38,386 nt of DNA from Patescibacteria group bacterium (lineage in GTDB: Bacteria; Patescibacteriota; WWE3; UBA101185; UBA10185): assembly GCA_018825365.1 (NCBI GenBank), contig JAHJEV010000003.1, positions 68,284 to 106,669 of the forward strand. Direction: 5' to 3'. Positions within the stretch are counted from its first letter, which is position 1; each line of letters starts with the position of its first letter. The notes beneath the pieces were generated by a model that saw only the letters and a program-made list of their open reading frames with translations, was not told where the DNA came from and searched no databases. The position numbers and the translations under genes were made by a program. Shown in pieces: positions 466-35,984 of this stretch.

Positions 466-613
466 GGAGCAATTCTAACACTTTTAGAGGTACTCTGATC
501 ACCTCTATTCATAATAGAATATAGGTAGTTGTAGTAGAAGCACTGTGATGTAAAATAACTGTACTCGAGAACTAAAATTGATAGTTTTGATCGTTGTATT
601 ATTAATAGGTTCT

Positions 614-1858: not shown

Positions 1859-1861
1859 ACA

Positions 1862-2962: not shown

Positions 2963-3023
2963 GTTGCCCCTATCCCGATTATAGCAGTAAACTAATAAAC
3001 AAAAAAGTGAAAAAGAAGAAATA

Positions 3024-3105
3024 TAGTGGGCGAGAGAGGACTCGAACCTCCAACCTTTCGGATACGGTCCTAAGCCGTACGCGTATGCAATTTCACAACT
3101 TGCTC
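3024..3105 (-). pseudogene. Degenerate copy of tRNA-Leu(TAG)
   Basis: 3026-3088 is identical to 14221-14283 (63 bp). The CCA end reads CTA. The 5' part has 5 substitutions and 1 deletion, giving two A-C mismatches in the acceptor stem. Confidence 0.88.
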
Positions 3106-3173
3106 TATTTATATGTAATTATACATTTGCTAACCTCATTTTACTTGATGTTTCATTTGAGTAACTACCCTAA

Positions 3174-3202
3174 TGGTGGGCTATGTGTTAGGACGTGCGA
3201 AC
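3174..3202 (+). repeat. 29-bp cassette-boundary motif, copy A
   Basis: TGGTGGGCTATGTGTTAGGACGTGCGAAC. Confidence 0.85.
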
Positions 3203-3375
3203 TACGATACATGTAACGATTTGTTAGACTAAAGGTGTGGTATATAACCTGATTTTAAAAAATATATTTGGAAATAATGGTAGGATATTTGGGGAGTAGT
3301 TGTGAAACATTGTTAATTAAATCAGCCGACTTTTATTGTCAAGCGCAATTATCTGAGCTATAAGCTTATAGCATA

Positions 3376-4677
3376 ATGAATAACAAAGAAACTAAAAAAT
3401 CAATAGACTCTTGCCTGGAGGAAACATATCGTATACTCGACGCTCCCTCGGAAAAACTCATCTCTTTAAACTCCATGATCATAGAATTAATTGATAGAGG
3501 TTACTTAGATGATACACCTCGAAACAAATCTAAATACTGGACAACAATAACTTTTAGGGATGTATTTATAACAACAACGGTTAGCTCCAAACCCAGTATC
3601 GGTCTTAAAAAATGGGTGCCTTTTACATACAAAAGAAAATTAATCAACCGGCGTTATAGGTCTGTTTTCACAGAATTAGACAACGCAGTTAATCACCAAG
3701 AACAATTGGACCAAAATTTATTCAGGCATGTTCTAAGTTATGAAGAAATTAGTAAGCACTTTTTTTATTTAGCACCTGTATTTATTAGCCGATTTAAATC
3801 AAAAACAGAGATAATTCCTACTACAATATACCTGTATGGTGGCTTTGACTTTATTGGGTGGATACTACCTGAGAAAAACATTCTTTTTGACGATCATGAT
3901 AAATTAAGGGAATTTATTCAAGAAAATCAGCTTGAACCAGGTGATTTTATTGTATACTCTCCAAACACTCAAGACGCCACGGGTATAGATATTTATACCA
4001 CTTGGCAACGCGACATGGATAAATATTACCGTGAAGGAAAAAGAGATAAAATTGATTACATCTTAAGTCACGAAACAAAAATCTCTGTTCGTGACCTAGT
4101 GTACCTTTACCTGATTGAGCATAATTTTATTGCAGAGGATTCTGAAATCATTGCTTTTGTTCAAAAACATCGCCCACTAATTGGTAAAGCAACTATTATG
4201 GGTGCTATCAGCCAGTTCCGTCATCGTATAAAAACCACAAAAGTAGAATCTGCTGATTCTGCAAACGAACAATCTACTACACACGAATCGACAATCGACC
4301 CGAGATATTTACTAGCTATAATCCAGAAAAAAGATTTAGTCTACAAATACCTACAATCTAATGGTCCAGCTACTGCAGACCAAATTGCTGGTGCCATAGC
4401 AGAAATCATCGGAGTAACAAAACAAAAGCTTTTGTCTCTTACATTTATCGATCCTCAAGATTCCCGAATAATCCGACTTGAAACTGGTGAGTTTGCATTG
4501 GCTCCCCAATTAGCAGATAAAGAAAATAATCTATTACTTTCCCCGCCTCCGGATCCCATTACTGCTCCCCCCTTTGTTCAATCACGCGCTCTGAAGTATA
4601 CAAAAACTTTTTTAATTGCCATAATAACAGTGGTTTCTATTATTATCTTATTAATTATACGGTCTAAAAATATATGA
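3376..4677 (+). CDS. Hypothetical protein with probable winged-HTH (HARE-HTH-like) repeats and a C-terminal transmembrane anchor
   Basis: 433-aa ORF. Related segments VRDLVYLYLIEH and KDLVYKYLQSN...DSRIIRLETGEFAL; Pro-rich linker then FLIAIITVVSIIILLII-RSK. ATGA overlap with the next gene. Confidence 0.6.
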   Translation: MNNKETKKSIDSCLEETYRILDAPSEKLISLNSMIIELIDRGYLDDTPRNKSKYWTTITFRDVFITTTVSSKPSIGLKKWVPFTYKRKLINRRYRSVFTELDNAVNHQEQLDQNLFRHVLSYEEISKHFFYLAPVFISRFKSKTEIIPTTIYLYGGFDFIGWILPEKNILFDDHDKLREFIQENQLEPGDFIVYSPNTQDATGIDIYTTWQRDMDKYYREGKRDKIDYILSHETKISVRDLVYLYLIEHNFIAEDSEIIAFVQKHRPLIGKATIMGAISQFRHRIKTTKVESADSANEQSTTHESTIDPRYLLAIIQKKDLVYKYLQSNGPATADQIAGAIAEIIGVTKQKLLSLTFIDPQDSRIIRLETGEFALAPQLADKENNLLLSPPPDPITAPPFVQSRALKYTKTFLIAIITVVSIIILLIIRSKNI

Positions 4678-6410
4678 TATACACGTGTAAATGGAACACT
4701 GATAAAAACTCGTTACCGTTGCAGGATGACTTTAAACTCCAATTTAAAGCACAAAACCAGGATGATATTCCGCTCATTCTTATCGACGACAATGATAATA
4801 AACAAAGTGTTATATACAGTTACCCCAAAAACGCAATACACCTAAGCTCACTAGTTGACTGGATCAATGATTTTCAACCCAAAAAGAACGAAGTTATTGA
4901 GTTAGTACAAGTAACCGGTACAAGTTTTAAAATTCGCATCGGTAGCCGTGAATCAAACGATGCCGAAGGTATATATCTTGGTAAGTTGAAAGATAGTTAC
5001 GCTCAATATACATCCCACCGGAATTTTATTCTTCCAACAGAAGATTTAGTCACGCACACATTTATTTGCGGTGCGACTGGTTCAGGAAAAACGGTTTTGG
5101 GTAAGGCAATTGTCGAGGAACTTGCTTTAAAAGAAATACCAGCCATTATTGTGGATCTCAAAGGTGATTTAAGCTCCCTTGGCTTAATGGCACCCCAATA
5201 CACACCAGAAACAATTGGTTCGTGGATTAACACAGAGCCCTCCAAGAAAGAAGCTCTGTGCCAACAAAAAGTAAATGAAATCAATACAGGACTTGATGAG
5301 TTTGGTTTGACTTCTGAAAAAGTTAAAACTTACATCGATTCTTTAAGTGTTGCGGTTTTCACACCTAAAGCCGGAAAGGGTATTCACCTTTCGATTTCCT
5401 CACCTTTGGCAGCACCAAAAGATATTGCTTCCTTAATGCTCAGCGATCGTTCCGAAGTACTGGAAATGATCGGTTCGTATACAGATTCCTTTATAAGAAG
5501 CCTTTTTGCTGAAAGAAAAATTGGGCGTCTTGATAAGTACAAAACTTTCCTACATGAAATAGTCCAATACTGTTGGGAACACAGTATTTCTCTGAACGGT
5601 AAAGAAGGTTTAGTTACCGTTCAGCAAATGATTAATGAACCACCCTTCCGTGAAATCGGTGGTATGAACCTAAATAAATTTATTGATGACAAAATGAGGG
5701 TTGAACTTGCCAATCGCATAGCCATGTGTCTCACAGGAGTTGAACAATTGTGGTTTGAAGGTATTCCAATAAATATCCCTATGTTGCTTTCTCGACCAAC
5801 TGAACACGGGGATAAAACACCAGTAAGCATAGTTAACGTCTCCGATTTGCCATTTGACGAACAGATGTACGTCGTTTCACATTTGGCTTATTCCATCTAT
5901 AACTGGGCTAGGCCGCAAGGAGATTCAGGTGAAAAACCACGCATACTATTTTTTATTGATGAAATAGGAGGAGGAGGAGGTAAACAAGCGTTTTATCCAA
6001 GTCACCCGTATAACCCACCCTCGAAACCACCTTTAAATGTACTCCTAAAAAAAGGTCGAACCTTTGGAATTAGTTGTTTATTTGCTACACAAAACCCAGG
6101 CGATATAGACTATAAGGGTCTAAGTAACTGTGGAACCTGGTTTGTTGGTCGACTACAAACAGAACGTGATCGGAGAAAAATAATGGAGGGAATATCTACT
6201 GCAGAAATTCAAATCCAAAATATAAAGAATAAAATTGAAGATCTGTCCTTCAAAGAATTTCTAGTTAAAACTAAAGACGGTAAGGTGAATTTTGTTAAGG
6301 AACGATGGTTAGTAACCTACCACAAGACTCTTTCCGAAAATGATTTGTCCACTATTAATGGCCCGGAAATAAAAAAACACTTTCAAGAATGTGCAAAGAT
6401 AACCAGTTAA
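4674..6410 (+). CDS. HerA/FtsK-superfamily (DUF87/DUF853-like) ATPase
   Basis: Walker A GATGSGKT, VDLKGD, Walker B ILFFIDE, KGRTFG, ATQNPGDIDYK, WFVGRLQTERDR. Confidence 0.88.
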   Translation: MIYTCKWNTDKNSLPLQDDFKLQFKAQNQDDIPLILIDDNDNKQSVIYSYPKNAIHLSSLVDWINDFQPKKNEVIELVQVTGTSFKIRIGSRESNDAEGIYLGKLKDSYAQYTSHRNFILPTEDLVTHTFICGATGSGKTVLGKAIVEELALKEIPAIIVDLKGDLSSLGLMAPQYTPETIGSWINTEPSKKEALCQQKVNEINTGLDEFGLTSEKVKTYIDSLSVAVFTPKAGKGIHLSISSPLAAPKDIASLMLSDRSEVLEMIGSYTDSFIRSLFAERKIGRLDKYKTFLHEIVQYCWEHSISLNGKEGLVTVQQMINEPPFREIGGMNLNKFIDDKMRVELANRIAMCLTGVEQLWFEGIPINIPMLLSRPTEHGDKTPVSIVNVSDLPFDEQMYVVSHLAYSIYNWARPQGDSGEKPRILFFIDEIGGGGGKQAFYPSHPYNPPSKPPLNVLLKKGRTFGISCLFATQNPGDIDYKGLSNCGTWFVGRLQTERDRRKIMEGISTAEIQIQNIKNKIEDLSFKEFLVKTKDGKVNFVKERWLVTYHKTLSENDLSTINGPEIKKHFQECAKITS

Positions 6411-6442
6411 ATAACGCTTCTCTAAGACTTATTACCGACATC

Positions 6443-6471
6443 TGGTGGGCCATCTGACAGAATGTGCGAAC
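6443..6471 (+). repeat. 29-bp cassette-boundary motif, copy B
   Basis: TGGTGGGCCATCTGACAGAATGTGCGAAC, 32 bp after the ATPase stop codon. Confidence 0.9.
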
Positions 6472-6714
6472 CTGTTAGTTACAGGAAAGATTTAACAGGT
6501 GAGAGATGTTTAATACACATGAAGACCTGAAAAATGTGCCAAGTTGAAATATCTATTTTATAAATTACCACCAAATCTCTACGCTACTTTGGCTCGGCGG
6601 GGAATGTATCCCCCGTCTCATGTGAGATAAAGGAGTTTGTTACAAAAAACAAAATTGCATCCCTATTAGTAAGTCCCTATACGTTTTTTTCCACTTTTCT
6701 GAAAGACCGATGTT

Positions 6715-7005
6715 TTATTCTTCATCTTGAGTTAGATCTTGAATTTGATTAAGTACGATTTTATCCAACTCCACCCCTGCGGCTTGCTCTATTTGATCCA
6801 ATTCCAAACATAGTTTGTTGACCTCATTTATTCCATCGTCAATCTCTTTGCTAAGCTGGGCCATTTTTTGTTTCCTTTTTACATCTGAATCTGCGATAGA
6901 GTTTATCACTCCCCTAGCTTCACGAAGTAGCTTTTGTATAAGTTCATAAGACTCCTGATCATTTTGCGTATCTATTATGCTTGTATCTTTTTGTGTGTAA
7001 TCCAT
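6715..7005 (-). CDS. Small acidic coiled-coil hypothetical protein
   Basis: 96-aa ORF starting 6 nt after the stop of the 415-aa ORF; helical, D/E/Q-rich. Confidence 0.65.
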   Translation of the reverse strand: MDYTQKDTSIIDTQNDQESYELIQKLLREARGVINSIADSDVKRKQKMAQLSKEIDDGINEVNKLCLELDQIEQAAGVELDKIVLNQIQDLTQDEE

Positions 7006-7011
7006 ATTTAA

Positions 7012-8259
7012 TTATTCAGCGTCTAGAATCAATCCAGTTTTATATTTATATCTCCACAATACCCTTTTATACTCTAAATAGACGTCCTTGAAATTGGCTG
7101 TTGTCATTCTACTATCTTCCGGAAAATCGGTTATTCTAAGAAACTGTTTTAACTGTCTGGGTTTTATTATATCGCGTGCGTTTACCCCGTTTAGATTAGT
7201 AAGCTCTCTATTCCAATTTTCCACTAAATTATCAAGATCCCAAAGCTTCTGCTTCGAAGAAGTTTCTATTGCTTCTGGCATTACTTTTTCTTCTAGGTCT
7301 TTAACCCCCTGTATATACCTGGCCTCGTCTCTTTGTTTCAAAGCTTCTCGATTAGGGGGGTTTGCTGCATTTTGCTCTTTTATTTTCTCGAACTGCTCTC
7401 TTTTCGTTCTATAGGGCTCAGCCTTTTTTTCATCGATCTGCTGAATTCTCTCTTTTTGTTCTATTATCTCAAGCCTTAAATCAAATACATCCTTTTGTTC
7501 TTTTTCAGCAGCTTTCCTCCCTGTCTTTAAATGTCGCTCAATTTCTCTGATATCTTTTCTTGATACTCCCGCCTTTGTCTCCAAACGTTTTTTAATTTCT
7601 TCTATTTCATCGAGTTTAGCAACACTATCCTTGTGTTTAATTTCATCCACCTTAAGGTCTAGCTCCATAACATCGGCTGAAAGCTGGAGTTTGGAGATTT
7701 TATTCTCAATGGGTTCTAATCTTCCGTCGTAATACTCAATAAGTTTGTCAGCAATTGCATTTCTTTTTTCTATAAAGGTTGTCTTTTTTTCGACCCTTGC
7801 ATTGTATCTTGCCTGTTTTTTTTCTTTATCAAACTCCAGACGAATTTTCTCTTTTTCAATAGCGTTTAACCGTTTTTGAAGAGATGGTGTAATAACGCCC
7901 CTACCTGATAACTCCTGCATAGAAGATGTAATTTCAACGGATTTTTCGTCCAATTCACTGATCCGTCCGCCTACCTTGTTTATTCCATCTTTTATTAGAT
8001 TTGCTTTCTCATCATGCTTATCTACCCAAAACTGGTTATATGTGATTTTTAATCTACCAAGAATCCTATCTCCAATCTGCATTTTCTCGACATGCTCAAA
8101 AACGTCAGTCGCAAAATCTTTTGCTTTGCCGGATAAACTCTCGAATACTTCCTTCGCAGGACGGTCAAAAAAGTTCTGTACATCCTCTGCTGCGTATATT
8201 GCTCTATCGACAATATCTAAGGGCATAATATTAACTGTTGAAATTATAACCATACACAC
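7012..8259 (-). CDS. Long coiled-coil hypothetical protein (true start possibly ATG 8226)
   Basis: 415-aa K/E/R-rich ORF with heptad character; no catalytic motif recognised. Confidence 0.75.
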   Translation of the reverse strand: MCMVIISTVNIMPLDIVDRAIYAAEDVQNFFDRPAKEVFESLSGKAKDFATDVFEHVEKMQIGDRILGRLKITYNQFWVDKHDEKANLIKDGINKVGGRISELDEKSVEITSSMQELSGRGVITPSLQKRLNAIEKEKIRLEFDKEKKQARYNARVEKKTTFIEKRNAIADKLIEYYDGRLEPIENKISKLQLSADVMELDLKVDEIKHKDSVAKLDEIEEIKKRLETKAGVSRKDIREIERHLKTGRKAAEKEQKDVFDLRLEIIEQKERIQQIDEKKAEPYRTKREQFEKIKEQNAANPPNREALKQRDEARYIQGVKDLEEKVMPEAIETSSKQKLWDLDNLVENWNRELTNLNGVNARDIIKPRQLKQFLRITDFPEDSRMTTANFKDVYLEYKRVLWRYKYKTGLILDAE

Positions 8260-8331
8260 AGTTGTTTACAACAAAAACAATACAGAGAGCGAAAGACGTT
8301 AATAGATGTTTTTAATTTGATAAATTTTTTT

Positions 8332-8360
8332 TGGTGGGCCATCTGCCAGGATGTGCGAAC
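8332..8360 (+). repeat. 29-bp cassette-boundary motif, copy C
   Basis: TGGTGGGCCATCTGCCAGGATGTGCGAAC. Confidence 0.9.
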
Positions 8361-8401
8361 CACTACCTCCTGAGAATTCGTCAGTGCTGGCTAATTGCTG
8401 A

Positions 8402-8469
8402 AAACTGCGAAGTTACTTTAGTTGACAGGTTTGTGATTTTTAAATATATTTAAACTGCAAGTTAGTTTA
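8402..8469 (+). promoter_or_regulatory. Sigma70 promoter of the abiE operon flanked by candidate operator repeats
   Basis: TTGACA(8422)-17 nt-TATATT(8445). AAACTGCGAAGTTACTTTA (8402) and AAACTGCAAGTTAGTTTA (8452) lie on either side. Confidence 0.6.
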
Positions 8470-8490
8470 AAGCTAACATCCAGTAGGAAT

Positions 8491-9063
8491 ATGCAAAAAG
8501 GTGACTATTTAACTACCATACTAAGATCAACTAAAACTGTCCTAACTCTTAAGGACATTGCTCTTTTATGGCAGGATTCTGATACCAACGCCGCAAGAGT
8601 CAGACTTAACTATTACGTTAGAAGGGGGCATTTGTGTCGTGTCCGAAGAGGTTTGTATTCCAAAGATAAAAACTACAACAAACTAGAGTTAGCAACCCGC
8701 ATATTCACCCCGTCCTACATTAGTTTTGAGACGGTTCTTGCAAAAGAAGGATTGGTGTTTCAATACCAAACCCAAATTACGGTTGCGTCCTATTTAACAA
8801 GAGAAATTATTATCGATAACCAAACCTACTCCTATAGAAGTATTAAAGAACCTGTGCTTATAAATACCTTGGGGGTTGAGCTTTCTGACGAAATATCAAT
8901 TGCTACCAAAGAGCGTGCCTTTTTAGATACTTTGTATATAAATACCGATTATCATTTTGACAACCTTAGATCCCTAAATTGGGATAAAGTATTTTCGATA
9001 TTACCAATATATAAAAACAAGCGTATGACCGGAACAGTTAATAAATTATTTAAGCAATCATGA
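8491..9063 (+). CDS. abiEi: Type IV toxin-antitoxin antitoxin, AbiEi family
   Basis: N-terminal wHTH ending RVRRGLY, PSYISFETVL, IATKERAFLDTLY; overlaps the toxin gene by ATGA. Confidence 0.88.
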   Translation: MQKGDYLTTILRSTKTVLTLKDIALLWQDSDTNAARVRLNYYVRRGHLCRVRRGLYSKDKNYNKLELATRIFTPSYISFETVLAKEGLVFQYQTQITVASYLTREIIIDNQTYSYRSIKEPVLINTLGVELSDEISIATKERAFLDTLYINTDYHFDNLRSLNWDKVFSILPIYKNKRMTGTVNKLFKQS

Positions 9064-9755
9064 CCTTAGACATATCTCTACATAAGACGATCCTGTTTCA
9101 GATTTTGAAGGACATTTATTCTGATACCACGATCTCACCTTTTTTAGGGTTTAAAGGTGGTACTGCGGCATTGATGTTTTACAAACTTGACCGCTTTTCT
9201 GTGGATCTTGATTTTGATCTGTTGGATGAAAGTAAAGAAGATGAGGTTTTTGCTAAAGTTTTAAAAATTGCTGCTAAGTACGGTACGATAAAAGAATCAT
9301 ATAAGAAACGCTATAACTTGTTTTGTTTAATATCCTATGAGGATAAGGCTCGCAATATTAAGGTGGAGATAAACCGCAGACAGTTTGGATCAAAGTACGA
9401 AATGAAAACCTATTTAGGTATATCGATGCTGACAATGGTTTCTGAGGATATGTTTGCACACAAATTAATGGCTATGTATGAGAGAATGGGAAAGACGAGC
9501 CGTGATATTTACGATGTTTGGTTTTTTCTGTCTAACCGTTTTCCAATTAATAAAGAGATTGTGGAAAAACGCTCCAATATGCCATTTAAACAACTGATTC
9601 AAACGTGTATTTTACAACTAGAGAAAATTAATAATAACCGTATACTGGAAGGGCTTGGGGAACTGTTAACACCGAATCAAAAAGACTGGGCTAAAGCCAA
9701 ACTAAAAGAGGAAACAATAGCCTTACTAAAACTTCGTATAGAAGCAGAAAAATAA
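9060..9755 (+). CDS. abiEii: Type IV toxin-antitoxin toxin, AbiEii/AbiGii nucleotidyltransferase
   Basis: FKGGTA...RFSVDLDF, IKVEIN, AHKLMA, RDIYD motifs. Confidence 0.92.
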   Translation: MTLDISLHKTILFQILKDIYSDTTISPFLGFKGGTAALMFYKLDRFSVDLDFDLLDESKEDEVFAKVLKIAAKYGTIKESYKKRYNLFCLISYEDKARNIKVEINRRQFGSKYEMKTYLGISMLTMVSEDMFAHKLMAMYERMGKTSRDIYDVWFFLSNRFPINKEIVEKRSNMPFKQLIQTCILQLEKINNNRILEGLGELLTPNQKDWAKAKLKEETIALLKLRIEAEK

Positions 9756-9816
9756 TATCTGATAAATAAATTCCGGTGGGTTTAGCAAATATGAAGTTGT
9801 TATAACAATAAAAGCG

Positions 9817-9845
9817 TGGTGGGCCAAGTGTCAGGATGTGCGAAC
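9817..9845 (+). repeat. 29-bp cassette-boundary motif, copy D, with extended left arm from 9777
   Basis: TGGTGGGCCAAGTGTCAGGATGTGCGAAC preceded by AGTTGTTATAACAATAAAAGCG, nearly the same as the sequence abutting tRNA-Leu(TAA). Confidence 0.9.
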
Positions 9846-9957
9846 CAGCTTTTTTTGTGACGTTAGTTATAAGCTGTGTCACTGCAAGTCTAGGATCGTC
9901 TTAAACTCAACCCACCCCCCTCAACCGTCCAATAAACTGCTAATATTATAATACTCA

Positions 9958-11826
9958 ATGAAAAAGCTTAAGAAAATAATACTGCGCATATTTTCTTTAC
10001 TTTTGCTGTTAGCTTTCAGCGCTATTTTAGTTCTTTATTCAATCTCTTATTTAATCCAATGGAATGATGACCGTGTTTCAAATAAAGGCGCAGAGGTTGT
10101 TAATGTTGAGGTAATAAGAAAAGATAATGTCTTGATCGGTCAAATAACAAACAAAGATGACGTCTCTTCAAAAAATCTTGAAGTTGGTTTAGACAACGAA
10201 GCACCTATTAATGTTAAGGAGGACGGTACATTCAGAATCGAGGATATAAATAAGGGAAATAAACACCTTTTCTATATAAATGGATCGCTCAGCAAAAAAA
10301 TCGGCTGGGCCAATGTTTCAGCTAAAAATAACAAAACCACTGCATTTATAGTAAAGCGTCCGTTGGTGGATTTTACATTTGGAGCAGATACTTATAATGA
10401 CAAAAGTTTGTATTCAGCAATAAATCACTGGTCTTTAGATCGAAGTGAGCTGTTTTACATAAATTCCACTATTGTTGCAAATATGCTAAGCACGTTTTCT
10501 GCGAGAGCCGCCTACAAAATCGATAAGGCGTTTTTTGGCCGTTCTACTCCATTTGTGGAATTAACGGGGTTTAATCAAAAGTACTTTACTCACCTTGATG
10601 ATCATGTGGAAGATAATCCAGAGGAGGAGTACACACTCAACGATATATATGGGTATACCTACGACAAAGCTGGGGTTCTTTGGATGATTACACCTATTGA
10701 TACTGTTGAATTTGCGAATCAGTTTAGAAATCTTTACGGTTCCGGGGCTATGAGATGTGAGGGATTTGCATTGTGGGATGTTGCTATGCTGAGAATTCTT
10801 GGATACGGCGTTGATGAAGTTATTGTAGGTTCATTTAGAGGGTCGGTGGGTCATGTAGCCGTTATTGTTAATACATCTTTAGGAGCAAATTATTTACTCT
10901 CAAATCAGTATTTGTTTGACAAAGGTGGTGAGGCTGCCCCTGGTACTTCTAGGTTATATGGAGATCTTAAGCAAGCTGAAAATTTTGTGGTGGAAGACAC
11001 CGGTATAGATACTTTTGCTAATGATTTTTATAACGTTTTCACGCCCGAAGCTATTGTTAACAATATGCCTGTTGAAACCTTAAAAGACTATTATGATGTT
11101 TTCTCCGAAATGATAGGTCGCCAAGTTCCATTAGTAGAAAAAGAGGAAGATTACAACAAAAAGATCAAAGACGAACCTACAATATCAATTGAGGATTACT
11201 TAAAGCAATATACACAAAGTACCAGCAACCCGTACCCTGAAATAGACACGTCGATTTACTTAAATGGAAATTGGGTTACTTACCATAACACTCTTCAAAA
11301 AGAGATTTGGGAACTAGCTTCTTTATACCCCAAGAATTCCCCGTATGTATTAGCTAAATACAATAACCGATCGCTTTTTGTGTCGAGGCCGGAACTGTAC
11401 GCACAAGTTTCTTTGAAAGGAAACAAAGTTATTGATTTGGCAAAGACTGTTAGGTCCCCCAATGCGATACTTGCTTGGATTAGCAAAAACGTAAATATGC
11501 CGGTTTATACGGAAAACACTCAAATAATGCTTGCTGATGAGCCAATTGTTTTTTCTGCAGGAAGACCTCAGGATAAGGCTATGTTGGCTTTTACCTTGTT
11601 AAAATTGAACAACTACGAAGCAGAAATAGTAATCGCAGAGGATACAAGTTACGTATTATTTAAAGAGGGTGGGAAGGTAAAAGTTTGGGACATGGCTACA
11701 TTAAGCGAAACCGGGATCATAGCTGATAGAGTGCATATTGTGTTTAATGAAAGTAAAACCTACTACCCCAACGCAAACCGTTTTGACGAAATGCCTATCA
11801 ATTTTGTAGAATTAACCAAGAAATGA
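9958..11826 (+). CDS. Membrane-anchored protein with transglutaminase/papain-like domain(s)
   Basis: N-terminal TM helix, beta-rich Ig-like segment, GAMRCEGFA...LRILGY...GHVAV (Cys/His); second degenerate copy GRPQDKAMLAFTLLK. Confidence 0.65.
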   Translation: MKKLKKIILRIFSLLLLLAFSAILVLYSISYLIQWNDDRVSNKGAEVVNVEVIRKDNVLIGQITNKDDVSSKNLEVGLDNEAPINVKEDGTFRIEDINKGNKHLFYINGSLSKKIGWANVSAKNNKTTAFIVKRPLVDFTFGADTYNDKSLYSAINHWSLDRSELFYINSTIVANMLSTFSARAAYKIDKAFFGRSTPFVELTGFNQKYFTHLDDHVEDNPEEEYTLNDIYGYTYDKAGVLWMITPIDTVEFANQFRNLYGSGAMRCEGFALWDVAMLRILGYGVDEVIVGSFRGSVGHVAVIVNTSLGANYLLSNQYLFDKGGEAAPGTSRLYGDLKQAENFVVEDTGIDTFANDFYNVFTPEAIVNNMPVETLKDYYDVFSEMIGRQVPLVEKEEDYNKKIKDEPTISIEDYLKQYTQSTSNPYPEIDTSIYLNGNWVTYHNTLQKEIWELASLYPKNSPYVLAKYNNRSLFVSRPELYAQVSLKGNKVIDLAKTVRSPNAILAWISKNVNMPVYTENTQIMLADEPIVFSAGRPQDKAMLAFTLLKLNNYEAEIVIAEDTSYVLFKEGGKVKVWDMATLSETGIIADRVHIVFNESKTYYPNANRFDEMPINFVELTKK

Positions 11827-13289
11827 AATATACCAGGGGTGTTATCTATGTGCTTCTGTTTTCGCTTCCTATCCTTTTGATCGGATGCTTCCCTTCTGTA
11901 TTTGCCATGAAATCTAAAACGGACACCACGCCTGAAACCACAATTAAAAATCAAATAGTCTTGATTGATGGAGTACCTTTTTTCTGTAAAGATGCGAAGG
12001 ATGCTCAAGAAAAAGCTGACGCACTCTTTAAGCTTTATACGGAAACAGAGTGGGATGACCCGGCTGCCGCAGTTGCGGCAAGGCAAGGTGCCTCCAGTAT
12101 GATTCAAAGTGGCTACGTTTCCCCGGAACATAGGAGTGCTAACACGCCGGTTGCCTCGACGGTTTTTAATGCTGATCCGATAACTAGCAATACTGGTAAC
12201 TTTGGACCGGCAATCACAAGCATCCTACCGGGTAAGTCGATTAATTTGGGTGATACGGACGTGGCTAAGGGAATCGGTAATTCGGCGATTGGCATAGCTA
12301 CAACCAAACTAATTGTTGATGCGGCTAATAAACAAGCAGTTGCGTCAGGTGCCCTTCCCCAAGTGAGTCAGGCTGCACTAAGCGACGTCGCCAAACTTAC
12401 GGGAAAAATAAACACTGTAGCAACTGCGGTAGATATTTCAACCGCGGGGTTAGCCTATATACAGGCAAACGAGGCCTTTATTAAAAGTGGTCAGCCGGCG
12501 GCAGACCCGAAAACGGGCACACCAAATCTCCTATATGTAGATGCATCTAATAAACTAATGGATTTGGCAGCTGCAGTAGCCCCAGTGTATTACACACCAG
12601 TATTTAATATTATGAAAGATGCCGGCCAAGGTGTCGCCACTTTACAAATCGGTCAGTCGCCGACAACTGGAATTGGAAAAGCCGAACATAAAGTATTAAA
12701 GCTTTTTTCGAACTATGCTATAACAGATGCTGAAAAAGCAGCCGTAGGACTCAGCTCAAATGAGAAAGTGACACCACCATGCTATGGCCCCAGCGCTCCT
12801 GGGTGTATTAAGCGCTTGGCTATTGCAACTAAATGTCCCCTAAATTTTATAGTGACAGCGCCAGATGGAAAAAAAGCCGGTGTCGATCCCACAACCAAAA
12901 AAGTGGTGGAAGAAATACCGGGCTCTTTTGTTCTTGATGCAGATAACTATAATGTTGATAGCCAGATAGTTTACCTGCCGGCACTGCAATCAGGTGACTA
13001 TCAAATCACGGCAACGGGGTTTGGAAAAGGAGATTACAATCTATACTACAAAACGTTTGACGCCGACGGAAACGTGCTGACTAGCCAACAATCTAAAGGA
13101 AAGATCAGTAATGGCGAAGTATTGGGAGCGAAATTTAACCCAAATGCGGACAGTTTAGCACGAGATAGCGAAAAAATTGTTTTTGTAAAAGATGTGATTT
13201 ATAAATATATTCTTCCATCAGCTGGTTTTGTACTGATTGTGCTTGTCGTTTCATTTTTAGCTTTTCGGAAAAAGAGAAAAAGATTGTAA
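11823..13289 (+). CDS. Exported surface protein with C-terminal TM anchor and basic tail
   Basis: Signal-like N-terminus, Ala/Gly/Thr-rich middle, CPLNFIVTAPDGKKAG beta-sandwich domain, TM followed by RKKRKRL. ATGA overlap with the upstream gene. Confidence 0.7.
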   Translation: MKYTRGVIYVLLFSLPILLIGCFPSVFAMKSKTDTTPETTIKNQIVLIDGVPFFCKDAKDAQEKADALFKLYTETEWDDPAAAVAARQGASSMIQSGYVSPEHRSANTPVASTVFNADPITSNTGNFGPAITSILPGKSINLGDTDVAKGIGNSAIGIATTKLIVDAANKQAVASGALPQVSQAALSDVAKLTGKINTVATAVDISTAGLAYIQANEAFIKSGQPAADPKTGTPNLLYVDASNKLMDLAAAVAPVYYTPVFNIMKDAGQGVATLQIGQSPTTGIGKAEHKVLKLFSNYAITDAEKAAVGLSSNEKVTPPCYGPSAPGCIKRLAIATKCPLNFIVTAPDGKKAGVDPTTKKVVEEIPGSFVLDADNYNVDSQIVYLPALQSGDYQITATGFGKGDYNLYYKTFDADGNVLTSQQSKGKISNGEVLGAKFNPNADSLARDSEKIVFVKDVIYKYILPSAGFVLIVLVVSFLAFRKKRKRL

Positions 13290-13293
13290 TTTT

Positions 13294-13322
13294 AATAGGA
13301 TAGCTCGTCGCGATGTGCGAAC
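13294..13322 (+). repeat. Degenerate cassette-boundary motif, copy E (right arm intact)
   Basis: AATAGGATAGCTCGTCGCGATGTGCGAAC; the last 11 nt match the consensus exactly; sits between two cassettes. Confidence 0.65.
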
Positions 13323-13389
13323 TACCTTGACAAAAATAAATGTTAGTATGTTATCATTTTGAAGAGTGGGAATGACATTTTTTAACTAG

Positions 13390-14076
13390 ATGTTTAAAAA
13401 TAAAGAAAATACAGGTAACAAAACAGTAAGGGAAATGAGTTTAAAAACTGTTATTGGGTATATCTTCAACGCACTCATCCTGATTTTTTTCATCTTTTCA
13501 GGAGTTGTAACAGTTAAAGCGGGCCAGTTGGTTGTTGGTATACTCTATTATGTTTTAGCTGCCCTGGTCGTTGTGCCTCACCACCGCCTAAGAGTCACTA
13601 AATCTTTAAAATTTGTAATTCTCGTTATACTTTTCTTTATACTTACCATAATAAGTGGTGTTAATAACACACCTGATAAACAAAAGTATGACTATTTTAC
13701 CTTAGCGCAGGAATTTAATCTAAAATATGGAGGTAATACATACTCAATTGTGGTTAAAGATGTGCGACAGGAGACCAAAATTATCGTACAACAAAAAGAG
13801 GTAACCACATCCGGTTATTTTCTCATTGTTCGGGCGGATATTGTGAATCTTGGATCGGAATCCATAGATTTTAAGCTCGGAAAAAATCCCGAGTTAATAG
13901 ATAACCAGGATAGACGCTATACTTTATATGGCTCAAATATACCTGCGGGAAAATTGCAACCTAGTGTGGCTAAGGAGGTTTCCTATTTTTTTGAAATACC
14001 CAAGGATGCATCAGGCTTAAAATTTATCATTAAAGATGGATCTGTAGTTGCTAAATCTATAGATCTGAAAAGATAA
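13390..14076 (+). CDS. Membrane protein with DUF4352-like Ig-fold domain
   Basis: Three N-terminal hydrophobic helices, then GYFLIVRADIVNLG...LIDNQDRRY...LQPSV...FEIPKDA. Confidence 0.75.
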   Translation: MFKNKENTGNKTVREMSLKTVIGYIFNALILIFFIFSGVVTVKAGQLVVGILYYVLAALVVVPHHRLRVTKSLKFVILVILFFILTIISGVNNTPDKQKYDYFTLAQEFNLKYGGNTYSIVVKDVRQETKIIVQQKEVTTSGYFLIVRADIVNLGSESIDFKLGKNPELIDNQDRRYTLYGSNIPAGKLQPSVAKEVSYFFEIPKDASGLKFIIKDGSVVAKSIDLKR

Positions 14077-14218
14077 TCATACTGCTTTTCATCCGAGTCG
14101 TTAAATTTTCCTAGAAAAATAGTTGGATACTTGGTAGAGGTCGTGATTTAGTGGTTAGTTATTGGGAAAAAGTTTGAACCTTCGAACTACTTTATTTTGT
14201 TATAAAAACAAAAAGCCG

Positions 14219-14301
14219 TGGTGGGCGAGAGAGGACTCGAACCTCCAACCTTTCGGATACGGTCCTAAGCCGTACGCGTATGCCAATTCCGCCACTCGCC
14301 C
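14219..14301 (-). tRNA. tRNA-Leu(TAG)
   Basis: GGGCGAG/CTCGCCC acceptor stem, TACGG-CT-TAG-GA-CCGTA anticodon arm, long variable arm, GGTTCGAGTCC, encoded ACCA. Confidence 0.97.
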
Positions 14302-22440: not shown

Positions 22441-22635
22441 ATGGAAAATCGCTCAAAAGTAGACAAATTAACAATGCCTTACTATGTACGCCAAAATCTA
22501 GAACTGATCTTAAGTTCTAATAGATGTACCTTGGACTATAGAATATCCAGATTAATAGCAGACGGCACCCTGGAAAAAATAAAACCCGTATTTTATCTTC
22601 AAAGGCAACCAGGAATTAGTAAATATGTCTTTTGA
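22441..22635 (+). pseudogene. Truncated AbiEi-like wHTH fragment
   Basis: RQNLELIL...TLDYRISRLIADGTLEKIKPVFYL resembles the AbiEi N-terminal wHTH; the ORF ends soon after. Confidence 0.5.
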
Positions 22636-33563: not shown

Positions 33564-33592
33564 TGGTGGACCGAGTGTCAGGATGTGCAAAC
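33564..33592 (+). repeat. 29-bp cassette-boundary motif, copy F
   Basis: TGGTGGACCGAGTGTCAGGATGTGCAAAC. Confidence 0.85.
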
Positions 33593-33636
33593 TATGTATA
33601 TCATCAGAACATCAATAGAAGATGTAAAATAAACGT

Positions 33637-34551
33637 GTGGAAACTCTTGAAGAAAAATTAAAGCGCGTTAAATTAGTTTTTAATATTGACGAAGTTATAA
33701 GCAGACGTACAAACCTGGATGATATTAAAAATTATTATAGGGTTAATATAATCCCCTATTTTCTTTTTCATAATAAACGAGACTTCGTTCATAATGGTAT
33801 ATCTAGAGGCAAAAGATATTCGGATAAAGATGTATATGAACAGCCCAAAATAGTAGAAAAATATATAAGAGAGATGGGTGCAAAAAGGTGTTTAGAATTA
33901 GCGACTGGAAAAGGAGCCTCAAGTTTTTATTTAGCAGAAATATTTCCCAACGTAAAATTCTTTGCTATTAATCTTGCTGACGGACAGTTAGAGATTGCTA
34001 AAAAGAAAGCCCGTCGAGTAGATAACTTCTTCCCAGAAGAAGGAGACTACCACGATTTAGGCAATTACCATGATAACGACTTTGATATAGTATTTGTGTT
34101 TGAGGCTCTTTGCCACAGCAATGACAAGGGAAAAGTCGCAAAGCAGGTATACAGACTGTTAAAGCAAGGTGGTTTGTTTATAGTCATTGATGGTTACTTA
34201 AATAAACCGTTAGGTGAACTTAGCGAAACCGAATTGTTAGCAAAAAAGCTTTCGGAAAGGGGGATAGTAGTAGAAAAATTCGAATTATATGACGATGTTA
34301 AGAAAGACATCGTTACAAAAGGTTTTCAAGTAATATATGAAAAGAATGCTTCTCTCTTGGTCCTACCTTCCTTGTATAGATTTGAGAAACTATCTCATGA
34401 AGTGCTTTTTAGAATTCCTTTGTTTGGAAAAATGATAGTCAAATTACTACCAAGAGATTTTGTTAATAACGCTTTGTCAGGTTACTTAATGCCCACTTTA
34501 ATCCAAACTAAAGTAGCTTGCTATTGCATCACTGTTTTTGAAAAGGTTTAG
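33637..34551 (+). CDS. Class I SAM-dependent methyltransferase (small-molecule/lipid type)
   Basis: CLELATGKG, GDYHDL, FDIVFVFEALCH, LKQGGLFIVID. Confidence 0.88.
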   Translation: METLEEKLKRVKLVFNIDEVISRRTNLDDIKNYYRVNIIPYFLFHNKRDFVHNGISRGKRYSDKDVYEQPKIVEKYIREMGAKRCLELATGKGASSFYLAEIFPNVKFFAINLADGQLEIAKKKARRVDNFFPEEGDYHDLGNYHDNDFDIVFVFEALCHSNDKGKVAKQVYRLLKQGGLFIVIDGYLNKPLGELSETELLAKKLSERGIVVEKFELYDDVKKDIVTKGFQVIYEKNASLLVLPSLYRFEKLSHEVLFRIPLFGKMIVKLLPRDFVNNALSGYLMPTLIQTKVACYCITVFEKV

Positions 34552-34586
34552 TGTTGTAATTATGTCGTTATGATAACCAAAAGTCG

Positions 34587-34615
34587 TGGTGGATCATCTG
34601 TCAGGATGTGCGAAC
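34587..34615 (+). repeat. 29-bp cassette-boundary motif, copy G, with extended left arm
   Basis: TGGTGGATCATCTGTCAGGATGTGCGAAC preceded by GTCGTTATGATAACCAAAAGTCG. Confidence 0.9.
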
Positions 34616-34662
34616 TGAGGTAAAGTTTCTGAAATGCTGGTAAGAAAAAATCTGCGTTACTG

Positions 34663-35805: not shown

Positions 35806-35898
35806 AATTGCATTTTAGCATTGAAATTGGTGAAAAGTGCAACTCCTTCTTGTTCTTGGGTTTGCCGAAAGCGGAGTTGTTATAACAACCAAAAAGCG

Positions 35899-35984
35899 TG
35901 GTGGGCGAGGAGGGAGTCGAACCCTCATCAGCCGAAGCTGACGACATTTTAAGTGTCGCGTGTATGCCATTCCACCACTCGCCC
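35899..35984 (-). tRNA. tRNA-Leu(TAA)
   Basis: GGGCGAG/CTCGCCC acceptor, CGACA-CT-TAA-AA-TGTCG anticodon arm, long variable arm, ACCA. Confidence 0.97.

What the first reader, a model, noticed from the sequence alone, without database searches (positions are those of the whole stretch)
9777..9845. A conserved left arm is shared by both tRNA-Leu trailers and two internal sites, and it reads like a protein C-terminus
Seen: AGTTGTTATAACAACCAAAAAGCG|TGGTGGGC (35875, includes the perfect palindrome GTTGTTATAACAAC), AGTTGTTATAACAAT--AAAAGCG|TGGTGGGC (9795), TTTTGTTATAAAAACAAAAAGCCG|TGGTGGGC (14195) and TGTCGTTATGATAACCAAAAGTCG|TGGTGGAT (34563). Similarity between 9777 and 35857 extends about 50 bp. 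A sequence now inside the Leu-TAG array therefore matches what abuts the other tRNA, as expected if each arm once lay against a tRNA and was displaced by the next insertion, with crossover in TGGTGG. In one frame three arms read SCYNNQKAWW, FCYKNKKPWW and CRYDNQKSWW, and the motif continues (A/I/T)xCQDVRT. Inference: the full attP is left arm + core + right arm and may be the 3' end of the cognate recombinase gene.
Basis: partly seen in the sequence, partly recalled or inferred. Interest (0 to 1): 0.75.

Follow-up and report, generated by a model that had tools for sequence, protein, structure and literature searches.

The report
Orphaned recombinase gene tails at tRNA-Leu
The repeated sequence beside the two leucine tRNA genes is the leftover attachment site, and last few codons, of a serine recombinase that stacked small gene cassettes there; it is a further example of a known kind of mobile island.

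Summary
Four sites (9795, 14195, 34563, 35875) share a 22-24-nt arm that ends at TGGTGG, which is the antisense of the tRNA's CCA end.

The arm is part of a larger system. A 30-nt motif (TGGTGGGCCATCTGTCAGGATGTGCGAACT) occurs six times intact and once decayed, all on one strand. It divides the DNA 3' of tRNA-Leu(TAG) and tRNA-Leu(TAA) into gene cassettes that carry no recombinase. The motif was found in 24 of 86 genomes of this Patescibacteria (WWE3) family.

One large-serine-recombinase lineage is seen in two states:
- L079 and P0001 end ...VDAVKSWW-AICQDVRT..., reading through left arm and motif.
- G076 ends ...VDTVKSWW-ARRESNP, reading into tRNA-Leu(TAA).

About 22 of 150 distant relatives carry a C-terminal W-x(4-5)-[DE][DE]VRT.

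No recombinase has that peptide.
- The window and its genome hold no cognate recombinase, so the arms are non-coding relics or cis sites.

The nearest published precedent is the Dehalococcoides ssrA islands. This scan has reported the same design before at other tRNAs.

The parts
9776..9816 (+). Left arm (P arm relic) at an internal joint. It reads ..SGGFSKYEVVITIKA before WW and is the only window copy still in the recombinase frame.
9817..9846 (+). Right-arm motif (P' half-site), TGGTGGGCCAAGTGTCAGGATGTGCGAACC, reading WWAKCQDVRT.
14167..14218 (+). Left arm abutting tRNA-Leu(TAG).
   Evidence: replaced by 40 other letters in a contig of run X5
14219..14301 (-). tRNA-Leu(TAG) with encoded CCA. 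It is the bacterial-side (B') half of the attachment site.
34540..34586 (+). Left arm at an internal joint of the Leu(TAA) array. It overlaps the stop of the methyltransferase ORF.
34587..34616 (+). Right-arm motif copy, reading WWIICQDVRT.
35833..35898 (+). Left arm abutting tRNA-Leu(TAA). It contains the perfect palindrome GTTGTTATAACAAC.
35899..35984 (-). tRNA-Leu(TAA) with encoded CCA (B' half).
3174..3203 (+). Right-arm motif copy without the shared left arm.
6443..6472 (+). Right-arm motif copy without the shared left arm. Contigs of runs X3 and X4 match the window from exactly 6443 rightwards and differ to the left.
8332..8361 (+). Right-arm motif copy without the shared left arm.
13294..13323 (+). 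Decayed seventh motif copy. Only GATGTGCGAACT is kept (17 of 30 match the consensus, by my own count). A relative (L062) has an intact motif at this position.
33564..33593 (+). Distal-most motif copy of the Leu(TAA) array. Its left flank is the native neighbour gene.
3026..3105 (-). Degenerate second tRNA-Leu(TAG) copy at the far end of the array. It lacks the CCA end and scores 33 bits against 55 for the intact gene.

Best explanation
**What it is.** The left arm is the element-side left half (P arm) of the attachment site of a large serine recombinase (LSR) lineage that targets the 3' end of tRNA-Leu.

**How the site is built.** In recombinase-bearing elements, attP lies inside the 3' end of the recombinase gene:
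- The left arm is the last ~20 codons before two Trp codons (TGG TGG, the antisense of the tRNA's CCA end).
- The 30-nt right-arm motif encodes the family's conserved C-terminal peptide (WW-AIC-QDVRT).

**What integration does.** Strand exchange within TGGTGGGC leaves two joints. One is [native flank + motif] at the far side. The other is [cargo ... recombinase ... left arm + tRNA] at the tRNA side. Repeated insertions push older units outward, so an old left arm comes to sit against the next unit's motif, as at 9795 and 34563.

**State in this window.** The recombinase genes themselves are gone. The arms are non-coding leftovers, possibly still usable as cis sites if a helper recombinase arrives.

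**Shown:**
- the repeats and the array layout;
- the recombinase ORF reading through arm plus motif, and through arm plus tRNA-Leu, in relatives;
- the family-wide tail peptide;
- the 5-bp offset of the CGAAC box between motif and tRNA.

**Inferred:**
- that the window's own arm variant descends from such a tail;
- the exact crossover position;
- how a second insertion is tolerated next to an earlier arm.
For: **1. Array layout.**
- The motif gives 6 matches in the window against 0 expected, all on one strand and all in this window of the genome. A decayed seventh copy is at 13294.
- It was found in 24 of 86 family genomes and 14 of 51 genera.
- In 13 of 20 fetched loci it lies 0.4-3 kb 3' of tRNA-Leu(taa/tag) in the same polarity.

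**2. No recombinase in the cassettes.**
- 0 of 19 window ORFs and 0 of 129 ORFs around 19 relatives' arrays hit a recombinase or transposase family.

**3. A recombinase that reads through the site.**
- Of 74 distinct motif copies, one (L079) sits in a long ORF in the TGG-TGG frame: 331 aa with a Zn_ribbon_recom domain, ending ..VDAVKSWWAICQDVRTILVASYA*.
- P0001, from another source, is 99% identical and ends ..WWAICEDVRTVLVSSYA.

**4. The same lineage in the integrated state.**
- A G076 fragment, 90% identical, ends ..VDTVKSWW|ARRESNP.. inside the antisense of tRNA-Leu(taa).
- P0018, an intact 569-aa LSR, ends ..TIWW|ARRESNPHS.

**5. The design is general in this family.**
- 9 of 12 LSR ORFs examined in family genomes end inside antisense tRNA-Pro, -Gln, -Asn or -His.
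- Among 150 representatives, about 22 end W-x(4-5)-[DE][DE]VRT and about 55 end in tRNA antisense.

**6. Site geometry.**
- CGAAC sits at positions 25-29 of the motif and 20-24 of the tRNA. The same holds for the tRNA-Asn and tRNA-Gln types in this genome.
- This matches the 5-bp inward shift of the zinc-ribbon-domain motif in attB relative to attP (PMC3783163, passages read).

**7. Coding signature of the motif.**
- Differences by codon position 1/2/3 are 54/22/73. Permutation p is about 0.01, but the copies are not independent.

**8. The window's arms resemble recombinase tails.**
- The 9795 copy reads VVITIKAWW, L068 reads GVDITIKNLWW, and the recombinase reads NVDAVKSWW.

**9. The arm is not a native tRNA trailer.**
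- In 8 same-genus relatives, tRNA-Leu(taa) begins TGGTGCCC and none has the arm.

**10. Cassette content differs between populations, breaking at TGGTGG.**
- Contigs of runs X3 and X4 match from exactly 6443 and then diverge.
- None of 4 runs covers 3284-6355 beyond traces.
- X5 has other letters in place of 14122-14218.
- L058 shares the left flank of 33564 but not the cassette to its right.
Against: - **Only broken cognate recombinases.** The tRNA-Leu recombinase that carries this motif is seen only broken: cut by an IS3-type transposase in L079, truncated in G076, and 321 aa in P0001. It appears in 1 of 86 family genomes, against 24 with the motif.
- **Modest homology of the window's arm variant.** Similarity to the L079 tail is roughly 55-60% over ~55 nt by eye. 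The tblastn E-values are driven by the motif.
- **Frames are broken.** Three of the four window arms are out of the recombinase frame. Arm spacers of 18, 21, 23, 24 and 25 nt occur.
- **No coding-like bias in the arm core** (16/28/8).
- **Uniform arm length.** The arms all begin at about the same point, ~62-70 nt from TGGTGG. That fits a defined cis unit better than random deletion remnants.
- **Position of the conserved core differs.** GTTG(A/T)T lies 5-6 bp closer to TGGTGG in L079 than in the window arms. I cannot explain this.
- **A conflict with the published model.** Under that model a joint of P arm plus tRNA is an attR-type site that should not accept a new attP. How arrays grow is therefore unexplained.
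- **No match to the short peptide.** A search with a 52-aa arm-plus-motif peptide found no longer protein.
Confidence: 0.75

Rival explanations
1. The arms are not passive relics. They are maintained cis sites (full attP = arm + motif) of non-autonomous cassettes, which a helper recombinase encoded elsewhere excises and re-inserts. This would be an integron-like cassette system run by a serine recombinase. It refines the best explanation rather than contradicting it.
For: - The arms start at a uniform distance from TGGTGG in 21 copies from several genomes.
- The dyad core GTTG.TAT..CAAC is conserved as DNA, not as codons.
- 24 of 86 genomes have arrays, but only 1 has a cognate recombinase remnant.
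- Cassette order and content differ between populations. A contig of run X5 joins 14150 to 6443 (40 letters on the shorter side, letters between not known).
- McMurdie et al. raise 'cis-mobilizable' integrase-less islands in Dehalococcoides (PMC3146451, passages).
Against: - Only 4 of 9 joints in the window carry this arm.
- No circular junction or empty site was seen, since only assembled contigs were available.
- No intact helper of this specificity was found in 86 family genomes, in 26 metagenome stretches or in viral contigs (0 matches).
Confidence: 0.3
2. The arm is a tRNA trailer signal: a terminator, a processing site or a small structured RNA that belongs to the tRNA-Leu genes.
For: - It lies directly 3' of both tRNA-Leu genes.
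- It contains a T-run and a palindrome on the tRNA strand.
Against: - Two of the four copies are not next to a tRNA.
- In 8 same-genus relatives the tRNA-Leu(taa) trailer is unrelated.
- No terminator-like site is present.
- Folding energies are no better than shuffles, with z from -1.0 to +0.9 in 6 folds.
- There is no Rfam match other than the tRNAs.
- The palindrome shows almost no compensatory change, and pair 5-10 is broken in 12 of 21 copies.
Confidence: 0.03
3. The cassettes are moved by a tyrosine recombinase, either integron-like or by exploiting the host Xer enzymes. The 28-30-nt motif would then be a dif-like or attC-like site.
For: - The motif can be written as 11 + 6 + 11 nt with partial dyad symmetry (GGTGGGCCATC TGTCAG GATGTGCGAAC; 7 of 11 by my own count).
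- The cassettes lack a recombinase.
- Two Xer-like tyrosine recombinases are present in the genome.
Against: - Xer-like tyrosine recombinases are near-universal: the 290-aa one has close orthologues in 85 of 86 genomes and most genomes show a second, weaker match. Their presence therefore does not track the 24 of 86 with arrays.
- All copies are direct repeats, with no attC-type hairpin.
- No intI-like gene lies next to any array.
- The motif is demonstrably the reading-through tail of a serine recombinase gene.
Confidence: 0.04
4. On the opposite strand the arm serves as promoter or 5' region for cassette genes that run in the tRNA's direction. Its conservation would reflect that role.
For: Just left of many arms there is a conserved CAT (a start codon on the minus strand) preceded by an AATT.TA.CA box, which looks like a -10 element. 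This is seen at window 35805 and in relatives L017, L025, L029, L030, L065 and L068.
Against: - Three of the four window arms (9795, 14195, 34563) have no minus-strand gene beside them.
- The consensus promoter scan found nothing on the minus strand at 35600-36000.
- This reading does not explain why the arm ends exactly at TGGTGG.
Confidence: 0.1

Closest known systems
Dehalococcoides ssrA-specific genomic islands with the serine recombinase DsiB (McMurdie et al. 2011, PMC3146451; passages read)
   Same: - Tandem islands lie downstream of a small RNA gene.
- The islands are bounded by direct repeats of that gene's 3' end, with extra conserved bases beside the repeat.
[quoted passage not shown]
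- Many islands lack an integration module.
   Different: - The target here is tRNA-Leu (and other tRNAs in the same family), not tmRNA.
- The cassettes are far smaller, 0.5-4 kb.
- No six-gene integration module is present.
- The element-side arm here encodes a peptide conserved across the recombinase family. McMurdie et al. judged the overlapping tail divergent and probably not functional.
Phage-type large serine integrases and their attP/attB sites (Listeria A118/LI integrase model, Rutherford et al. 2013, PMC3783163; passages read)
   Same: - The domain set is Resolvase + Recombinase + zinc ribbon (P0018).
- The element-side half-site carries its outer recognition box 5 bp farther from the centre than the bacterial-side half-site.
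   Different: - attP lies inside the enzyme's own coding sequence, so integration replaces the C-terminal tail.
- The bacterial half-site is the universal T-loop region of a tRNA.
- Activity, the crossover dinucleotide and any directionality factor are untested.
Tycheposons of Prochlorococcus (Hackl et al., preprint 10.1101/2020.12.28.424599; passages read)
   Same: - The islands are anchored at tRNAs and built by successive integrations that push older elements outward.
- Scattered partial tRNAs and integrase fragments remain.
- The cargo is adaptive or defence genes.
   Different: - 910 of 937 tycheposons use tyrosine recombinases.
- The repeats there are true partial tRNAs. Here only 8 nt are tRNA-derived and the rest is recombinase tail.
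SSV1-type archaeal integrases whose attP lies within the int gene (recalled; the review PMC8371274 was seen only in a search listing)
   Same: The recombination site is inside the recombinase ORF, so integration splits or alters the gene.
   Different: - Those are tyrosine recombinases and the gene is split near the middle or N-terminal part.
- Here a serine recombinase loses only its last ~17 codons.
Integrons (IntI, attI, attC cassettes)
   Same: Arrays of promoter-poor, recombinase-less single-gene cassettes are separated by a repeated recombination site.
   Different: - There is no IntI tyrosine recombinase and no attC hairpin.
- The array is anchored at a tRNA 3' end.
- The repeat is a serine-recombinase half-site.

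Membership tests
Large serine recombinase attP/attB integration system | A cognate recombinase with Resolvase, Recombinase and zinc-ribbon domains encoded by the element. | tested here: not met
   - Window and genome: none for tRNA-Leu.
- Relatives: only fragments that carry this motif (L079 has the Zn ribbon only; the G076 fragment has no Pfam hit).
- P0018, an intact 569-aa LSR with all three domains, is fused to tRNA-Leu antisense but is only 32% identical.
Large serine recombinase attP/attB integration system | The outer (zinc-ribbon-domain) recognition box lies 5 bp closer to the centre in attB than in attP. | tested here: met
   CGAAC is at positions 25-29 of the motif against 20-24 of tRNA-Leu. 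The same offset holds for the tRNA-Asn and tRNA-Gln types in this genome. The rule is taken from PMC3783163. That CGAAC is the recognised box is inference.
Large serine recombinase attP/attB integration system | Hybrid attL/attR joints flank the integrated DNA, and the same element is seen in both attP and integrated forms. | tested here: met
   L079 and P0001 show arm+motif. G076 shows the same arm plus tRNA-Leu(taa). The window's distal joints are native flank plus motif.
Large serine recombinase attP/attB integration system | Imperfect dyad symmetry of the two half-sites around a central crossover dinucleotide. | tested here: inconclusive
   In the 35875 arm, AGTT and AACT are symmetric about the G3/T4 step of TGGTGG. 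The real recombinase tail in L079 lacks this symmetry (my reading).
Large serine recombinase attP/attB integration system | Catalysis of attP x attB recombination. | not testable with these tools
   Needs a recombination assay.
Dehalococcoides-type tandem RNA-gene-anchored serine-recombinase islands | Tandem units are bounded by direct repeats of the target gene's 3' end, and the recombinase gene overlaps the joint at its 3' end. | tested here: met
   comparison text
Dehalococcoides-type tandem RNA-gene-anchored serine-recombinase islands | A conserved multi-gene integration module (DsiB, DsiA, RecF-like, ParB-like and others). | tested here: not met
   No such genes among 19 window ORFs or 129 ORFs in relatives.
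Integron | An IntI tyrosine recombinase with attI next to the array, and attC sites that fold as imperfect hairpins. | tested here: not met
   No tyrosine recombinase at any array. The repeats are direct and fold no better than shuffles.
   - Open frames through the four window arms are 72 codons or fewer.
- A 2-nt gap at 9795 breaks the frame.

The most novel reading that the evidence does not exclude
This serine recombinase family has tied its own C-terminus to its target. The codons for its conserved tail ([DE][DE]VRT, GA. GT. CGA ACT) carry the same CGAAC box as the T-loop of every tRNA, placed exactly 5 bp farther out. One protein design can therefore be retargeted to any tRNA by changing about 8 nt of core. 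Integration swaps the enzyme's tail for tRNA antisense, which could act as a built-in switch of activity or direction. The orphaned arm-plus-motif sites would let recombinase-less single-gene cassettes be captured, shuffled and lost in trans. Together this would be a serine-recombinase counterpart of the integron that supplies defence and accessory genes to ultra-small Patescibacteria genomes.
Probability: 0.25. Interest if true: 0.7.

Novelty: new member of a known kind. Interest (0 to 1): 0.4.

Why it matters
- **Genome variability.** It explains how a 0.73-Mb genome with almost no mobile-element genes still carries strain-variable defence cargo behind its tRNA genes. In this window that cargo includes a BstXI-type restriction-modification pair, an AbiE toxin-antitoxin pair and a HerA-like ATPase.
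- **Annotation.** It gives a rule for such genomes: a TGG-initiated 30-nt repeat ending CGAACT marks a cassette joint, not an RNA gene.
- **Enzyme resource.** The recombinase family is large (3146 library hits at E <= 0.001). Its natural targets are tRNA ends, and its attP/attB pairs can be read directly from genomes. That may interest people who mine serine integrases.
- **Limits.** For this particular finding the gain is modest. The design has a published precedent in Dehalococcoides, and this scan has already met it at other tRNAs.

Tried and rejected
- **Hidden RNA gene.** I first considered that the ~100 nt at 9817-9920 were a hidden tRNA-like or tmRNA-like gene ending in CCACCA. ARAGORN and Rfam found nothing there, and conservation stops after 30 nt.
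- **Novel recombinases among cassette ORFs.** The unannotated ORFs 34663-35805, 7012-8259 and 3376-4677 might have been related novel recombinases. They show no pairwise similarity and no Pfam or PHROG hit.
- **Co-occurrence with tyrosine recombinases.** Uninformative, since these enzymes are near-universal in the family.
- **Peptide search.** A 52-aa arm+motif peptide (P0007) searched against longer proteins gave 8 candidates, none scored.
- **Viral contigs.** 0 matches to the motif.
- **The genome's only serine recombinase.** It lies at the end of C3 and continues on C1. It has an unrelated arm and a tRNA-Asn-type tail, so it is not the cognate enzyme.
- **Hairpin reading of the palindrome.** Rejected for lack of covariation and of folding stability.
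- **Laid contigs.** The X3 joint 8360->14218 (29 letters on one side, letters between not known) is too weak to interpret. Parts of the stretch without cover are not evidence of absence on their own.
- **Literature.** Searches found no paper in the held library that describes tRNA-targeting serine-recombinase cassette arrays in Patescibacteria. That covers four searches only; subscription journals and supplements were not seen.
Full report
**1. The observation**

All six tRNA genes of the window lie on the minus strand. On the plus strand, TGGTGGGC is therefore the reverse complement of the tRNA 3' end GCCCACCA, with the CCA encoded.

Their identity to the 35875 arm is as follows:
- 14195 and 34563 each match 18 of 24 ungapped.
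- 9795 matches 21 of 22 after a 2-nt gap.
- The other four TGGTGG-anchored sites match 3-8 of 24.
- Only 7 of about 76,700 24-mers of the window reach 17 of 24.

The similarity between 9777 and 35857 runs for about 45 nt. A loose pattern for the arm alone was not significant: 16 matches against 10.2 expected.

**2. The arm belongs to a larger repeat system**

Right of TGGTGG, at the sites that are not tRNAs, lies a 30-nt motif with consensus TGGTGGGCCATCTGTCAGGATGTGCGAACT.
- It occurs six times in the window, all on the plus strand, against 0 expected, and nowhere else in the 732-kb genome.
- A seventh, decayed copy at 13294-13323 keeps only GATGTGCGAACT. A relative, L062, has an intact motif at that position.
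- The copies cut the DNA 3' of tRNA-Leu(TAG) (14219) and tRNA-Leu(TAA) (35899) into cassettes.

Cassette content by Pfam:

| Window span | Content |
|---|---|
| 578-2962 | BstXI-like restriction-modification pair |
| 3376-6410 | unknown protein plus HerA-like ATPase |
| 6715-8259 | two unknown proteins |
| 8491-9755 | AbiEi/AbiEii |
| 9958-13289 | two unknown proteins |
| 13390-14076 | DUF4352 protein |
| 33637-34551 | methyltransferase |
| 34663-35805 | unknown 380-aa protein |

None of 19 ORFs hits a recombinase family. Seven of them gave no PHROG hit either. The shared left arm is present at 4 of the 9 joints: in each array, the tRNA-adjacent joint and the next one out.

**3. Distribution**

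- The motif, allowing up to 2 mismatches, is in 24 of 86 genomes of the family and 14 of 51 genera. It often forms same-strand arrays 0.5-2 kb apart.
- An exact-pattern scan of one genome per species found 22 stretches, all Patescibacteria MAGs. Their depositors label them WWE3, Saccharibacteria, Nomurabacteria or Patescibacteria.
- The same pattern gave 26 metagenome stretches and 0 viral contigs.
- I fetched 20 loci from 18 of the 23 other genomes that hold the motif. Five genomes with short contigs were left out. Results:
  - In 13 loci the motif lies 0.4-3 kb 3' of tRNA-Leu(taa) or (tag), in the tRNA's polarity.
  - In 2 loci a 6-mismatch variant lies by tRNA-Phe, and in 1 locus the motif lies by tRNA-Ile.
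  - In 4 loci the contig ends before any tRNA.
- Of 129 ORFs in and around 19 of these arrays (L032 omitted as a near-duplicate of L031), none hits a recombinase or transposase family. The cargo includes HD and NUDIX hydrolases, methyltransferases, nucleotidyltransferases, peptidases and radical-SAM enzymes.

**4. Finding the enzyme**

Tyrosine recombinases do not discriminate. The genome has two. The 290-aa one has close orthologues in 85 of 86 family genomes, and most genomes also show a second, weaker match, as this genome does.

I tested that idea here.
- I collected 74 distinct motif copies from the window and 63 loci, allowing up to 6 mismatches and collapsing duplicates.
- In the TGG-TGG frame, the open stretch is at most 54 codons upstream in 72 of 74 copies and at most 44 codons downstream in 73 of 74.
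- Two of the three exceptions are unrelated ORFs (L031 and L056).
- The third, metagenome contig L079, is a 331-aa C-terminal part of an LSR. It has a Zn_ribbon_recom domain (E = 2.8e-7) and a coiled-coil region, and ends ...SANVDAVKSWWAICQDVRTILVASYA*. It therefore reads through left arm and motif. Its N-terminal part is cut off by an rve-type (IS3-like) transposase gene.
- P0001, from a different source, is 99% identical and ends ...VDAVKSWWAICEDVRTVLVSSYA.
- In family genome G076, a 90%-identical fragment ends ...SANVDTVKSWW|ARRESNPYPPKWTTF*. There the sequence after WW is the antisense of tRNA-Leu(taa), which lies convergently at that spot.

One recombinase lineage is thus seen both with arm plus motif and with arm plus tRNA-Leu. 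This is what attP and an integrated joint should look like if attP lies in the gene's 3' end and strand exchange occurs in TGGTGGGC.

**5. The design is general in the family**

- 39 of 86 family genomes hold LSR homologues.
- Of the 12 LSR ORFs printed from 20 loci, 9 end inside the antisense of a tRNA:
  - tRNA-Pro: ...HWFLKW|SG*
  - tRNA-Gln: ...SWL|GDRDSNP
  - tRNA-Asn: ...LWL|PRVDSNH
  - tRNA-His
- A search of 1.84 billion representatives gave 3146 hits at E <= 0.001. Among the best 150, about 55 tails run into tRNA antisense, including P0018 (...TIWW|ARRESNPHS), an intact 569-aa LSR. About 22 have an uninterrupted tail W-x(4-5)-[DE][DE]VRT[FY]. These counts come from a regex corrected by eye and are approximate.
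- WWAICQDVRT is therefore the local form of a family-wide C-terminal peptide.
- In this genome the same kind of scar exists for the tRNA-Asn type (WLRTLNEIRTFF, five copies) and the tRNA-Gln type.

**6. Site geometry**

The box CGAAC occupies positions 25-29 of the motif and 20-24 of the tRNA antisense, where it is the T-loop. The same 5-bp offset holds for the Asn and Gln types.

Rutherford et al. (PMC3783163, passages read) showed for the Listeria integrase that the zinc-ribbon-domain motif of attB is shifted 5 bp toward the centre relative to attP. The match is suggestive. That CGAAC is the recognised box is my inference.

**7. Coding signal**

- **Right arm.** Over the 74 motif copies, differences from consensus fall 54/22/73 on codon positions 1/2/3 of the WW frame. 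Conservation ends at position 30. A permutation of the 30 values gives p of about 0.01. The copies are related, and two polymorphic sites (ATC/ATT and CAG/GAG) dominate. Most third-position changes are synonymous. This fits copies that were shed from diverged coding sequences.
- **Left arm.** Here the picture differs.
  - The distance from GTT to TGG is 18, 21, 23, 24 or 25 nt in different copies.
  - The recombinase frame (NVDAVKSWW) corresponds to VVITIKAWW at 9795 and GVDITIKNLWW in L068.
  - That peptide is in 0 of 157 proteins collected. It occurs only in open frames of 48 codons or fewer.
  - The 14-nt core shows 16/28/8 differences by codon position in the recombinase frame, which is not a coding pattern. 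Its dyad GTTG.TAT..CAAC shows almost no compensatory change.
  - The arm thus behaves as a DNA site, or as a relic, lying in a variable part of the protein.

**8. Rivals**

- **tRNA trailer signal.** This is excluded. Two copies are not at tRNAs. In 8 same-genus relatives, tRNA-Leu(taa) begins TGGTGCCC, with unrelated trailers. There is no terminator, no folding stability (z from -1.0 to +0.9) and no Rfam hit.
- **Tyrosine-recombinase or integron-like mechanism.** Nothing supports it.
- **Promoter role on the opposite strand.** This is possible at some cassettes. A conserved start codon plus a -10-like box sits just left of many arms. It cannot explain the three window arms that have no minus-strand gene beside them.

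**9. Turnover**

- L058 shares 748 nt (91%) with the window up to the end of the 33564 motif and then differs.
- Contigs of public runs X3 and X4 (two studies) match the window from exactly 6443 rightwards and continue with unlike sequence to the left.
- None of four runs covers 3284-6355 beyond traces.
- A contig of X5 has 40 other letters in place of 14122-14218, that is, a different arm at the tRNA. Another X5 contig joins 14150 to 6443 (40 letters on the shorter side, letters between unknown).
- These are assembled contigs, so they show different cassette contents but not excision events.

**10. What remains open**

- No intact cognate recombinase was found. The motif-bearing lineage is seen only broken.
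- Homology of the window's arm variant to a recombinase tail is moderate. The P0018 tail KNGDELSSNTIWW and the L068 arm KNGVDITIKNLWW are alike in length and pattern.
- The arms all start at about the same distance from TGGTGG, which hints at a defined cis unit.
- The conserved GTTG(A/T)T lies 5-6 bp nearer TGGTGG in L079 than in the window arms.
- Under the published model, a P arm next to the tRNA should block further insertion, yet arrays exist.

**11. Comparison and novelty**

- The closest published system is the Dehalococcoides ssrA islands. They are tandem islands bounded by repeats of the tmRNA 3' end. The serine recombinase gene dsiB 'always' overlaps attL at its 3' end, and many islands lack integrases (PMC3146451, passages).
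- Tycheposons show the same outward stacking at tRNAs (preprint 10.1101/2020.12.28.424599, passages).
- Four literature searches found no description of this family in Patescibacteria.
- This scan has reported the same design at tRNA-Asp, -Gly and -Gln in this genome, and at tRNA-Asn, -Tyr, -Trp, -Glu, -Met, -Ser and -Lys elsewhere.
- I file the finding as a new member of a known kind. Interest is moderate.

Noticed in passing
window 22583-22705 (+), abutting tRNA-Pro(tgg) 22706-22782 (-): About 40 codons of a serine recombinase tail (NPYFIFKGNQELVNMSFEAIELPEYADVTVSSGDFEYWFLKW|SG...) run into the antisense of tRNA-Pro. Intact recombinases in G048, G013 and G019 end the same way (..HWFLKW|SG*). 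No recombinase body is left here.
   Followed up: partly
window 13294-13323: This is a decayed seventh copy of the motif, with only GATGTGCGAACT kept. The stretch 9846-14218 is therefore two cassettes. Relative L062 has an intact motif at this position and a different cassette between it and the tRNA.
   Followed up: partly
window 3026-3105 (-): A second, degenerate tRNA-Leu(TAG) copy lies at the far end of the array, next to the BstXI-like restriction-modification genes. It has no CCA end, a divergent 5' half, and scores 33 bits against 55 for the intact gene. Its origin is not explained.
   Followed up: no
window 35899-35984 compared with L101, L103-L109: tRNA-Leu(taa) comes in two forms within the genus. 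This genome's gene ends GCCCACCA (plus strand TGGTGGGCG...). In 8 relatives it ends GGGCACCA (TGGTGCCCG...), which lacks the 8-nt core shared with the motif. The target may therefore exist only in some species.
   Followed up: partly
G000:C3:458515 to the contig end, continuing at the start of C1: The genome's only large serine recombinase has an in-frame TAA near its N-terminus. It ends with the family tail ..IWLRTLNEIRTFF. Five copies of that tail/site (tRNA-Asn type) and one tRNA-Gln-type copy (C3:133401) lie elsewhere in the genome.
   Followed up: partly
L079 1398-2544 (-): An IS3-type transposase (rve plus HTH) is inserted in, or directly upstream of, the truncated tRNA-Leu-type recombinase gene.
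   Followed up: partly
about 70-100 nt left of TGGTGG in window 35803-35826 and in L017, L025, L029, L030, L065, L068: A conserved CAT (a start codon on the minus strand) is preceded on that strand by an AATT.TA.CA box that looks like a -10 element. This suggests very short leaders for cassette genes that run in the tRNA's direction.
   Followed up: no
L079 470-560 compared with the window arms: The conserved GTTG(A/T)T of the left arm lies 5-6 bp closer to TGGTGG in the real recombinase tail (18 nt from GTT to TGG) than in the window arms (23 nt). Also, the recombinase tail carries a second GTGCGAACT box about 57 nt left of TGGTGG, at the place of AAAGTTCGACTC in the arms. Neither point is explained.
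   Followed up: no
window 578-9755: The tRNA-Leu(TAG) array is rich in defence-type cargo: an N6/N4 methylase plus BstXI-like endonuclease, a HerA-like ATPase with an unknown partner, and AbiEi/AbiEii.
   Followed up: no
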